Part shown: positions 1,724 to 2,002 of the stretch, piece after piece
Layout: the number at the start of each line of letters is the position of its first letter
Position numbering within the stretch: the first letter of the stretch is position 1
Assembly: GCF_013167455.1 (NCBI RefSeq)
Contig: NZ_CP038328.1
DNA from: Escherichia coli O157:H7
Lineage (GTDB): Bacteria; Pseudomonadota; Gammaproteobacteria; Enterobacterales; Enterobacteriaceae
Direction: 5' to 3' (one strand)
Length of the DNA stretch: 64,000 bases
Position numbers and translations under genes: made by a program
Notes under the pieces: generated by a model
Told to the model about the DNA's origin: nothing
Databases searched by the model: none
Seen by the model: only the letters and a program-made list of their open reading frames with translations

Positions 1724-1765
1724 CGCCATGATTGCCACGGATGGCAACATATTAACGGCATAATA

Positions 1766-1825
1766 TTGACTTTTTGAATAACTTTGGGGAAACTTGACAC
1801 CAATAATGGGCGTTTTTTACATGTC
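1766..1825 (+). promoter_or_regulatory. pR'-like late promoter / qut region
   Basis: TTGACT (1766-1771), 17-bp spacer, weak -10 GAAACT, then TTGACACCAATAATGGG; the whole stretch aligns by eye with the lambda pR' region (TTGACTTATTGAATAAAATTGGGTAAATTTGACTCAACGATGGG). Lies 43 bp downstream of Q. Confidence 0.45.
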
Positions 1826-2002
1826 ATTGATGAGTCTCAATAACCTGCCGCCGAGTAGTTTTTATGCTCTGAATTGTATTTGTGTAGTAAACATGCTGAC
1901 TGCAATGTAATAGAGTTTTTTTAGCCTGTAACCTCTTGACGGCATTGAATTGCTTTTGTTATGAGTTGTAAGCCAATGTTATCATCTTGTATTGGGGTGG
2001 TT

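What the first reader, a model, noticed from the sequence alone, without database searches (positions are those of the whole stretch)
1724..2002. Lambda-like pR'/qut region retained downstream of Q
The stretch just after the Q stop aligns by eye with the lambda pR' promoter and Q-utilisation region, although the -10 is degenerate (GAAACT versus TAAATT). If functional, Q antitermination would read through into the membrane-protein gene and nanS-p, coupling their expression to prophage induction, even though the prophage itself is lysis- and morphogenesis-defective.
Basis: partly seen in the sequence, partly recalled or inferred. Interest (0 to 1): 0.4.

Follow-up and report, generated by a model that had tools for sequence, protein, structure and literature searches.

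The report
Lambda-type late promoter, variant allele
The 87 bases after the Q gene are a real, widespread variant of the phage lambda late promoter with its Q-loading site, probably still usable. The rest of the flagged stretch is the leader of an inserted gene cassette, so the finding is largely ordinary.

Summary
The window is prophage remnant Sp17 of E. coli O157:H7 Sakai (100% identical over 1100-3400).

**What is lambda-like.** Only 1724-1810 is homologous to the lambda/P22/HK97 pR'-qut region (about 90% identity, E 1e-20 to 1e-24). Every named element is present:
- -35 TTGACT (1766-1771), then a 17-bp spacer carrying the Q-binding element
- -10 GAAACT (1789-1794)
- -35-like TTGACA (1794-1799)
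- pause element AATAAT+GGG (1802-1810)

**How common it is.** This is a fixed allele, found in 569 of 5426 complete E. coli genomes. It is 279/279 identical in the plaque-forming phage Lambda_2B8 and in a complete prophage of EPEC E2348/69. It is therefore most likely functional, not decayed.

**What is not lambda-like.** 1811-2002 is the leader of an AT-rich moron, which also occurs behind a Q82-family Q. The terminator that opens this leader has decayed here, so no tR' lies between pR' and the membrane-protein gene. The first strong terminators are at 3138-3159 and 3257-3278.

**Consequence.** Q would be needed for nanS-p but not for the membrane protein.

**Open point.** Sp17 lacks its early region, and no consensus promoter was found for Q, so coupling to induction is unproven.

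Verdict: a new member of a known kind, of low interest.

The parts
1100..1723 (+). Q antiterminator gene, Q-lambda family (ECs_3501 of Sakai Sp17)
   Evidence: 202/207 aa identical to lambda Q. Pfam PF03589, two domains, E 7e-30 and 8e-26. Differences from lambda: A51V, L135Q, R138I, V140A, V205I.
1724..1765 (+). Conserved spacer between the Q stop and the -35 element
   Evidence: Nearly invariant across lambda, P22, HK97, HK446, HK633 and phiv205-1.
1766..1771 (+). pR' -35 hexamer TTGACT
   Evidence: Invariant in all aligned phages. Coordinates from the exact search.
1772..1792 (+). Stretch homologous to the 21-mer annotated as the lambda Qut site (Q-binding element region): TTTTGAATAACTTTGGGGAAA
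   Evidence: 17/21 identical to lambda TATTGAATAAAATTGGGTAAA and 18/21 to the P22/HK97 form. The two central positions are polymorphic among natural alleles: AA, AG, AC, GG, CT.
1789..1794 (+). pR' -10 hexamer GAAACT, 17 bp from the -35
   Evidence: TAAATT in the other alleles found by the degenerate scan (pooled tally of 128 rows, 8 of them loci fetched earlier); GAAACT in 21 rows, 19 of them among the 120 IMG/VR loci. Keeps -11A and -7T. G-12 and C-8 occur in lambda pL GATACT.
1794..1799 (+). -35-like element TTGACA, the site where sigma region 4 is repositioned in the Q-loading complex
   Evidence: Aligned with lambda TTGACT. Role taken from PMC9388147. The 2-nt gap to the pause element matches HK97.
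1802..1810 (+). Sigma-dependent pause element: -10-like AATAAT plus discriminator-like GGG. The predicted transcription start is at 1801/1802.
   Evidence: Aligned with lambda AACGAT-GGG at +1 to +9. 5/6 to consensus against 3/6 in lambda. The effect of a consensus element is described in PMC4005639. The start site is inferred, not measured.
1811..1844 (+). Junction segment with no lambda homology; holds a T6 run (1813-1818) at the expected pause position
   Evidence: Homology break. Invariant within the haplotype. Origin not found.
1845..1866 (+). Decayed remnant of a tR'-type terminator (CUGC-CGCCGA-GUAG-UUUUU)
   Evidence: Homologous to a good terminator, AAACCCGCUGCCGAGUGGGUUUUUUU, behind a Q82-family Q in another O157 prophage. 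Fold -13.7 kcal/mol, z -3.8 there, against -2.2 kcal/mol, z +0.2 here.
1867..2002 (+). Untranslated leader of the moron, with a promoter-like site TTGTTA-18-TATCAT (1956-1985, TG-extended)
   Evidence: 97-100% identical behind the Q82-type cassette. Promoter-like site. No significant RNA structure (z -0.6). No Rfam family.
2003..2719 (+). Membrane-protein moron gene (ECs_3500; RefSeq starts it at 1976)
   Evidence: ORF list. phrog_1521 and phrog_14371, function unknown. No NCBIfam or PADLOC hit. GC 31-41%.
2805..2972 (+). Small DUF3927 / TciB-like ORF, second moron gene
   Evidence: RefSeq annotation. phrog_1470, E 3e-19.
2980..3170 (+). STnc100-family sRNA region, ending in the first strong + strand terminator (3138-3159)
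   Evidence: Rfam RF02076, 144.7 bits against a gathering score of 47. Terminator; fold -21.4 kcal/mol, z -3.5.
3171..3232 (-). AgvB2 anti-sRNA (EcOnc01b), convergent with STnc100
   Evidence: Rfam RF02702, 96.5 bits. Tree 2014 places EcOnc01b in Sp17.
3257..3278 (+). Second strong + strand terminator upstream of nanS-p
   Evidence: Fold -14.9 kcal/mol, z -2.7. The Hfq-bound RNA EcOnc06 maps to 3207-3269 (+).
3380..5233 (+). nanS-p-type esterase gene (ECs_3498), the first gene that would need Q-dependent readthrough
   Evidence: RefSeq calls it 'SASA family carbohydrate esterase' or 'DUF6645'. The position relative to the terminators is read from the sequence.

Best explanation
Window 1724-1810 is an ortholog of the lambda/P22/HK97 late promoter pR' with its embedded Q-loading (qut) site, in a distinct and widespread allele.

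Proposed mechanism, inferred from the lambda paradigm:
1. Sigma-70 RNA polymerase starts at about 1801/1802 from TTGACT-17-GAAACT.
2. Sigma region 2 re-binds the near-consensus -10-like AATAAT+GGG (1802-1810), and the polymerase pauses about 16-25 nt downstream.
3. Q, bound to the spacer between -35 and -10, contacts sigma region 4 repositioned on TTGACA (1794-1799). Q then loads onto the polymerase and makes it terminator-resistant.

Unlike lambda, there is no promoter-proximal tR'. Downstream of +10 the lambda sequence has been replaced by an AT-rich moron: leader, membrane-protein gene and TciB-like small ORF. The terminator at the head of that leader has decayed. Transcription from pR' should therefore reach the two moron genes without Q and stop at the strong terminators at 3138-3159 and 3257-3278. 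Only Q-modified polymerase would go on into nanS-p and the remnant lysis genes.

Shown: the homology, the element positions, the allele's distribution and its identity in a viable phage, the absence of a terminator, and the decayed terminator homolog. Inferred: promoter activity, start site, pausing and Q loading. Unknown: whether the Sp17 remnant makes any Q, because its early regulatory region is gone.
For: Homology:
- 87-94% identity to annotated pR'/qut sites of lambda, P22, HK97 and relatives, E down to 4e-24.
- Element-by-element alignment, with exact coordinates.
- Q is 98% identical to lambda Q and belongs to PF03589.

A fixed allele rather than random decay:
- GAAACT, the CT in the spacer, the extra base, AATAAT and the new downstream sequence are always linked.
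- The leader is nearly invariant within the haplotype.
- The junction is present in 569 of 5426 complete E. coli genomes, 558 of them at 99% identity or more.

Function in living phages:
- 1724-2002 is 279/279 identical in phage Lambda_2B8. That phage comes from a collection of plaque-purified temperate phages (PMC6969025).
- It is also 279/279 identical in a complete lambdoid prophage of EPEC E2348/69, which runs from cI through terminase and portal.
- Both carry strong terminators between pR' and the holin gene, so a working Q-loading site is needed there.

The -10 hexamer: each base of GAAACT occurs in a functional lambda promoter. pL is TTGACA-17-GATACT and pR is TTGACT-17-GATAAT.

No proximal terminator:
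- The scan finds none on the + strand between 1500 and 3137.
- Folding shows nothing significant in the leader.
- The homologous site behind a Q82-family Q is a good terminator, while the copy here is decayed.

Mechanistic roles of the Q-binding element, the pause element and the -35-like element are taken from PMC9388147 and PMC4005639.
Against: - There is no transcript-level evidence for a start at about 1801 in Sakai. The papers and supplements I could read contain none.
- The -10 matches consensus at only 3 of 6 positions, and the generic promoter scan does not call the site.
- The Q-binding element differs from lambda at 4 of 21 positions. I could not retrieve which bases Q contacts, because that information is only in figures.
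- Homology ends at +10, so lambda's pause-site sequence at +16/+17 (C-G) is replaced by a T run. Pausing behaviour may differ.
- Viability of 2B8 shows the allele can work with that phage's own Q, which differs from the Sp17 Q at four positions (51, 131, 136, 138).
- In Sp17 no promoter for Q was found.
- Rho-dependent termination or H-NS silencing in the 200-nt AT-rich leader was not tested.
Confidence: 0.75

Rival explanations
1. Decayed relic. The substitutions in the -10 and the Q-binding element have inactivated pR'/qut, and the site is a fossil with no transcriptional role.
For: The -10 matches consensus at 3 of 6 positions and is not called by the promoter scan. The Q-binding element has 4 of 21 differences from lambda. 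The host element Sp17 is heavily degraded.
Against: The same sequence, base for base, sits in a plaque-forming phage and in a complete prophage whose late genes lie behind terminators. The changes form one fixed haplotype in 569 genomes rather than scattered decay. The pause element has moved towards consensus, not away from it. -11A and -7T are retained, and G-12/C-8 occur in lambda pL.
Confidence: 0.1
2. The moron runs on its own promoter. In lysogens the membrane-protein gene is expressed mainly from the promoter-like site at 1956-1985 (TTGTTA-18-TATCAT with TG), independently of pR' and Q, as is usual for morons. Any pR' transcription is minor or is stopped in the leader, for example by Rho or H-NS.
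For: The promoter-like site has 9 of 12 matches and a TG extension. It is conserved wherever the moron occurs, including behind a Q82-family cassette that has an intact terminator upstream of it. The region is AT-rich, with GC 31-41%.
Against: The number of promoter-like sites found in this region is not above chance (3 found, 4.7 expected). The RefSeq start codon at 1976 lies inside this site. This explanation does not exclude pR' activity; the two can coexist.
Confidence: 0.3
3. Q antitermination at this site is what switches on the membrane-protein gene and nanS-p, tying both to prophage induction.
For: The Q gene and qut site are intact. nanS-p lies behind two strong terminators. nanS-p of phage 933W is among the genes most induced by norfloxacin (review PMC8065619).
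Against: There is no terminator between pR' and the membrane-protein gene. Sp17 has no immunity or early region and does not excise or amplify. No consensus promoter for Q was found. No second full-length copy of this lambda-type Q gene was found at nucleotide level in O157 to act in trans.
Confidence: 0.2

Closest known systems
Phage lambda late regulatory cassette (Q - pR' - qut - 6S RNA - tR')
   Same: The Q protein is 98% identical. The order, spacing and sequence of the -35, the Q-binding spacer, the -10, the -35-like element and the -10-like pause element plus GGG are the same or nearly so.
   Different: - The -10 is GAAACT rather than TAAATT, and the pause element is AATAAT rather than AACGAT.
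- There is one extra base between the -35-like and pause elements.
- Two central Q-binding-element positions differ.
- Homology ends at +10, and there is no 6S RNA or tR' at +194 (lambda tR' folds at -33.8 kcal/mol).
- Two moron genes occupy the interval before the first strong terminator, about 1.35 kb downstream.
P22 P-late/gene 23 and HK97 gp69 cassettes
   Same: The TTTTGAATAA form of the spacer is shared. HK97 shares the extra base that gives a 2-nt gap before the pause element.
   Different: P22 and HK97 have a compact terminator about 30-60 nt after the start (-23.3 kcal/mol). The window has none.
Q82-family (PF06323) late cassette in another O157:H7 prophage (NZ_CP017438, locus L129)
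   Same: It carries the same moron, with an identical membrane-protein accession (WP_001302581.1) and the same leader from window position about 1842 onward.
   Different: The Q family is unrelated. Its putative promoter, TTGCAA-17-TATACT, overlaps the Q stop. It has an intact terminator, where the window has only a remnant.
Stx-phage pR'-tR' short transcript StxS (Sy et al. 2020, PMC7547250)
   Same: The concept is shared: pR' is constitutively active in lysogens, and what lies between pR' and the first terminator is made without Q.
   Different: There the interval is short and yields an sRNA. Here it would be a ~1.35-kb mRNA with two ORFs, ending in an STnc100-family element. This is inferred, not shown.

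Membership tests
Q-lambda-type late regulatory cassette (pR' with embedded qut) | Q gene of the Q-lambda family (PF03589) immediately upstream | tested here: met
   202/207 identity to lambda Q. PF03589, E 7e-30.
Q-lambda-type late regulatory cassette (pR' with embedded qut) | Sigma-70 promoter about 40-70 bp after the Q stop: -35 TTGACT, 17-bp spacer, -10 hexamer | tested here: inconclusive
   The -35 and the spacing are conserved. The -10 GAAACT is 3/6 to consensus and below the scan threshold, but it keeps -11A and -7T and resembles lambda pL GATACT. Activity was not measured.
Q-lambda-type late regulatory cassette (pR' with embedded qut) | Q-binding element between -35 and -10 | tested here: inconclusive
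   Homologous, 17/21 to lambda's annotated qut 21-mer. The two central differences fall at positions that vary among natural alleles. The bases Q contacts could not be retrieved. Binding was not tested.
Q-lambda-type late regulatory cassette (pR' with embedded qut) | Sigma-dependent pause element (-10-like hexamer plus GGG) at the start of the transcript, preceded by a -35-like TTGACN | tested here: met
   TTGACA 1794-1799, AATAAT 1802-1807, GGG 1808-1810, aligned to lambda's TTGACT / AACGAT / GGG.
Q-lambda-type late regulatory cassette (pR' with embedded qut) | Intrinsic terminator tR' shortly downstream of the pause site | tested here: not met
   No terminator on the + strand before 3138. 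Leader folds are not different from shuffled sequence. The only candidate (1845-1866) is a decayed homolog at -2.2 kcal/mol. The first strong terminators are about 1.35 kb downstream.
Q-lambda-type late regulatory cassette (pR' with embedded qut) | Late (lysis and morphogenesis) operon downstream | tested here: not met
   In this window only nanS-p, the holin and a YdfR-family gene are intact. The endolysin is truncated by IS elements and the morphogenesis genes are absent. The same allele does precede full late operons in 2B8 and E2348/69.
Q-lambda-type late regulatory cassette (pR' with embedded qut) | Q-dependent pause escape and terminator readthrough | not testable with these tools
   This needs in vitro transcription or reporter assays.

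The most novel reading that the evidence does not exclude
The allele may be a rewired late switch rather than lambda's switch with a few neutral changes.
- The proximal terminator has been lost.
- Two lysogenic-conversion genes have been placed in the Q-independent '6S RNA' interval of pR', with an STnc100-family sRNA at the transcript's 3' end.
- Basal flow may be throttled instead by a weaker -10 (GAAACT), a near-consensus sigma-dependent pause element (AATAAT+GGG) and a T6 run at the pause site.
- The haplotype-linked substitutions next to the sigma-region-4-contacting tip of the Q arm would then be co-adaptations to the altered qut. V140A occurs in 18 of 19 haplotype alleles and R138I in 13 of 19; neither occurs in about 100 canonical alleles.
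Probability: 0.15. Interest if true: 0.5.

Novelty: new member of a known kind. Interest (0 to 1): 0.25.

Why it matters
If the allele works as proposed, the membrane-protein and TciB-like genes would be expressed in lysogens from the always-on late promoter. These genes are present in about 10% of complete E. coli genomes, including O157:H7, O26, O111, O145 and EPEC E2348/69. The nanS-p esterase would stay behind Q-dependent terminators. That would show a simple route by which phages place conversion genes under constitutive control: insertion upstream of the effective tR'. It also bears on the origin of the STnc100/EcOnc06 transcripts that are convergent with the anti-sRNA AgvB2. For Sp17 itself the practical consequence is small unless Q is made. 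The presence of PR' in Sp17 is already assumed in the literature (Tree et al. 2014).

Tried and rejected
- **Rfam**, E-value mode over 1-8000: nothing in 1724-2002.
- **tRNA scan** of 1-8000: none.
- **RNA folding** of the leader and sub-segments: no structure beyond shuffled controls, so no hidden terminator or riboswitch-like element.
- **Alternative promoters** using AATAAT or TTGACA (1794-1799) as core elements: rejected by reading the sequence, because the spacing is wrong or -11A is missing.
- **Which Q-binding-element bases Q contacts**: the papers give this only in figures, so it could not be retrieved.
- **Expression data** for ECs_3498 to ECs_3501 after SOS induction: the stored supplement is cut before these genes, and a full-text search for the locus tags found nothing.
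- **The StxS paper**: it does not mention Sp17.
- **NCBIfam and PADLOC** for the moron proteins: no hits.
- **HnrS**: I considered whether the terminator remnant could be the 3' end of an HnrS-like sRNA. The HnrS preprint gives no sequence in its text, so this stays open.
- **Q-arm/haplotype co-variation**: it cannot be separated from simple linkage, since the sites are about 270 bp apart. One GAAACT allele carries the canonical arm.

Full report
**Where we are.** The window's first 13.5 kb is the degraded lambdoid prophage at ssrA of E. coli O157:H7. Positions 1100-3400 are 100% identical to Sakai prophage Sp17.
- Window position w corresponds to Sakai coordinate 3489618 - w on the minus strand.
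- Q is ECs_3501, the membrane protein is ECs_3500 and the esterase is ECs_3498.
- The gene order in an identical strain is: IS30 fragment, HNH endonuclease, NinG, NinI phosphatase, Q, hypothetical membrane protein, DUF3927 small protein, SASA/DUF6645 esterase (nanS-p type), holin, YdfR-family protein. An endolysin cut by IS66/IS1203 follows, then tail-fibre fragments, espW, espM2, dinI and ssrA.
- Asadulghani et al. 2009 scored Sp17 as severely degraded and negative for excision, amplification and packaging (PMC2669165).

**The observation.**
- blastn of 1724-2002 against 50,697 phage records gave 117 hits.
- Two records cover at least 80% of the stretch; Lambda_2B8, the one I examined, is 100% identical across it.
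- The other listed hits (lambda, P22, HK97, HK446, HK620, epsilon34 and others) cover only query 1/4 to 75-87, at 87-94% identity and E 1e-17 to 4e-24.
- In several records the matched region is annotated as the PR' promoter or 'lambda Qut site'.
- A seven-phage alignment and an exact search give the anatomy below.

| Element | Window | Sequence here | Reference phages |
|---|---|---|---|
| -35 | 1766-1771 | TTGACT | invariant |
| Spacer with Q-binding element | 1772-1788 | 17 bp | see below |
| -10 | 1789-1794 | GAAACT | TAAATT |
| -35-like | 1794-1799 | TTGACA | TTGACT in lambda |
| Gap | 1800-1801 | 2 nt | 2 nt in HK97 |
| Pause -10-like | 1802-1807 | AATAAT | AACGAT |
| Discriminator-like | 1808-1810 | GGG | GGG in lambda, HK446 and phiv205-1; GGA in P22, HK97 and HK633 |

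- After about 1811 all similarity to these phages ends.
- The motif alone is not distinctive: 0.8 chance matches are expected per 64 kb, and the generic scan does not call the site. The case rests on homology.

**Q itself.** The Q protein is 202/207 identical to lambda Q and belongs to PF03589.

**Is the variant a decayed copy?**
- Nineteen of them carry exactly the window's combination: CT in the spacer, GAAACT, the extra base, AATAAT, then GGGCGTTTTTTACATG. These features are always linked, apart from one recombinant that has CT with TAAATT. All other loci have TAAATT (its tally pools these loci with eight fetched earlier, giving 21 of 128).
- Within the haplotype, 1766-2060 is almost invariant.
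- A 95-nt probe across the junction finds the haplotype in 569 of 5426 complete E. coli genomes, 558 of them at 99% identity or more. These include O157:H7, O111, O127:H6 and pig, chicken and cattle isolates.
- 1724-2002 is 279/279 identical in phage Lambda_2B8 and in a prophage of EPEC E2348/69.
- 2B8 comes from the Mathieu et al. collection of temperate phages that were plaque-purified and amplified on K-12 or C indicator strains (PMC6969025).
- The E2348/69 prophage is complete. It has a cI-like repressor, cro, cII, O, P, the nin region, Q, the same moron, holin, lysozyme, Rz, terminase, portal and capsid genes.
- In both, strong + strand terminators lie between this promoter and the holin gene, so late expression should need a working Q-loading site.
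- This is inference from the lambda paradigm, but it makes the 'decayed relic' reading unlikely.
- 'Degenerate' also overstates the -10. GAAACT keeps -11A and -7T, and G at -12 and C at -8 are the bases of lambda pL (TTGACA-17-GATACT). pR is TTGACT-17-GATAAT.
- The pause element has moved towards consensus (AATAAT, 5/6). Strobel and Roberts showed that a consensus element next to GGG binds sigma especially strongly and widens pause and arrest capture (PMC4005639).

**What 1811-2002 is.**
- It is the untranslated leader of an AT-rich moron, with GC 31-41% against 48-50% in the flanks.
- The moron consists of a 238-aa membrane protein (phrog_1521 and phrog_14371, function unknown) and a 55-aa DUF3927/TciB-like ORF (phrog_1470). 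Neither has an NCBIfam or PADLOC match.
- The same moron, with an identical protein accession, follows a completely different antiterminator in another O157:H7 prophage: a PF06323 (Q82-family) Q next to lpxR.
- There, homology to the window begins at about window 1842.
- The first shared feature in that prophage is a good intrinsic terminator, AAACCCGCUGCCGAGUGGGUUUUUUU (-13.7 kcal/mol, z -3.8).
- The window's copy, CCUGCCGCCGAGUAGUUUUU (1845-1866), has lost three bases and a G. It folds at -2.2 kcal/mol, no better than shuffled sequence.
- No other terminator is predicted in the leader. For comparison, lambda tR' folds at -33.8 and P22 tR' at -23.3 kcal/mol.
- The first strong + strand terminators are at 3138-3159 (-21.4 kcal/mol; the 3' end of an STnc100-family element, Rfam 144.7 bits) and 3257-3278 (-14.9 kcal/mol).
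- The same layout holds in 2B8 and E2348/69: pR', no proximal terminator, two moron ORFs, then terminators about 1.3 kb downstream.

**Consequences for the interpretation.**
- If pR' fires constitutively, as lambda's does in lysogens (background summarised in PMC7547250), the membrane-protein and TciB-like genes lie in the Q-independent part of the transcript. They may also use a promoter-like site at 1956-1985, TTGTTA-18-TATCAT with a TG extension.
- Q would be required only to pass 3138-3278 into nanS-p, the holin and beyond.
- Whether Sp17 ever makes Q is open. Its immunity and early region is missing, an IS30 fragment abuts the HNH-ninG-ninI-Q block, and no consensus promoter was found on that strand.
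- O157 genomes show only one full-length nucleotide match to this Q plus a second short place. In strain 2159, the one genome where I checked it, that second place is a 72-nt 5' fragment.
- I found no usable expression data for these genes.

**Comparison with the known.**
- This is the lambda Q-pR'-qut cassette, recognised by homology.
- Tree et al. 2014 already describe the Sp17 sRNAs as lying '3' of PR'' in the moron insertion site (PMC4104026).
- Of the defining features, the Q family and the pause element with its -35-like partner are met. The promoter -10 and the Q-binding element are homologous, but their activity is untested.
- The proximal tR' is tested and not met. The late operon is truncated in this copy.
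- I file it as a new member (allele) of a known kind. Its one structurally unusual trait is the displacement of the effective terminator to beyond two moron genes.

**Side observations.**
- AgvB2 lies at 3171-3232 on the minus strand, convergent with the STnc100-family element.
- The Hfq-bound RNA EcOnc06 of Tree et al. (about 177 nt on Northern) maps to window 3207-3269 on the + strand.
- Q-arm substitutions V140A and R138I are confined to this haplotype. They sit next to the arm tip (residues 133-137) that contacts sigma region 4 (PMC9388147). This is compatible with co-adaptation or with plain linkage.

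Noticed in passing
window 2980-3232: A convergent sRNA pair. An STnc100-family element lies at 2980-3170 on the + strand (Rfam 144.7 bits), and the anti-GcvB sRNA AgvB2 lies at 3171-3232 on the - strand (96.5 bits). This is the arrangement Tree et al. 2014 described for Sp17.
   Followed up: partly
window 3207-3269 (+): The Hfq-crosslinked RNA EcOnc06 of Tree et al. (Sakai 3486349-3486411, minus strand, about 177 nt on Northern) maps here. It is antisense to AgvB2 and lies just upstream of the terminator at 3257-3278. Its promoter is unknown; it could be readthrough from pR' or STnc100.
   Followed up: partly
window 1502-1519 (Q codons 135-140) versus 1789-1807: Q arm substitutions V140A (18 of 19) and R138I (13 of 19) occur only with the GAAACT/AATAAT promoter haplotype and in none of about 100 canonical alleles. 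They flank the arm tip that contacts sigma region 4. This may be co-adaptation or simple linkage.
   Followed up: partly
window 1845-1866; L129 2503-2526: A decayed terminator remnant in the window is homologous to an intact terminator that ends a putative ~53-nt short RNA. That RNA would start at a TTGCAA-17-TATACT promoter behind a Q82-family Q in another O157 prophage.
   Followed up: yes
window 1813-1818: A T6 run sits where the sigma-dependent pause (+16/+17 in lambda) is expected, replacing lambda's C-G pause-site bases. It might change pausing or transcript release.
   Followed up: no
window 2805-2972: A 55-aa ORF annotated DUF3927 matches phrog_1470, 'TciB-like inhibition of cell division or resistance to colicin' (E 3e-19).
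   Followed up: partly
window 1976 versus 2003: RefSeq starts the membrane-protein CDS at ATG 1976, inside the -10 of the promoter-like site at 1956-1985. ATG 2003, preceded by GGGGTGG, matches phrog_14371 from residue 1 and is the more likely start.
   Followed up: partly
window 2810-3139 (-): Sakai ECs_3499 is annotated on the minus strand across the intergenic region and STnc100. It is probably a spurious ORF.
   Followed up: no
window 5998-8742: The endolysin gene is truncated after about 73 codons by an IS66-family element (tnpA and tnpB intact, transposase cut), which is itself interrupted by IS1203. This is the lesion that makes the lysis cassette defective.
   Followed up: partly
window 3380-5233: A 2026 preprint abstract reports that the capsid of Stx phage phi24B is decorated by a processed esterase (seen). 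nanS-p-type genes in this late-operon position may therefore also encode a virion component. I did not check this against the window's protein.
   Followed up: no
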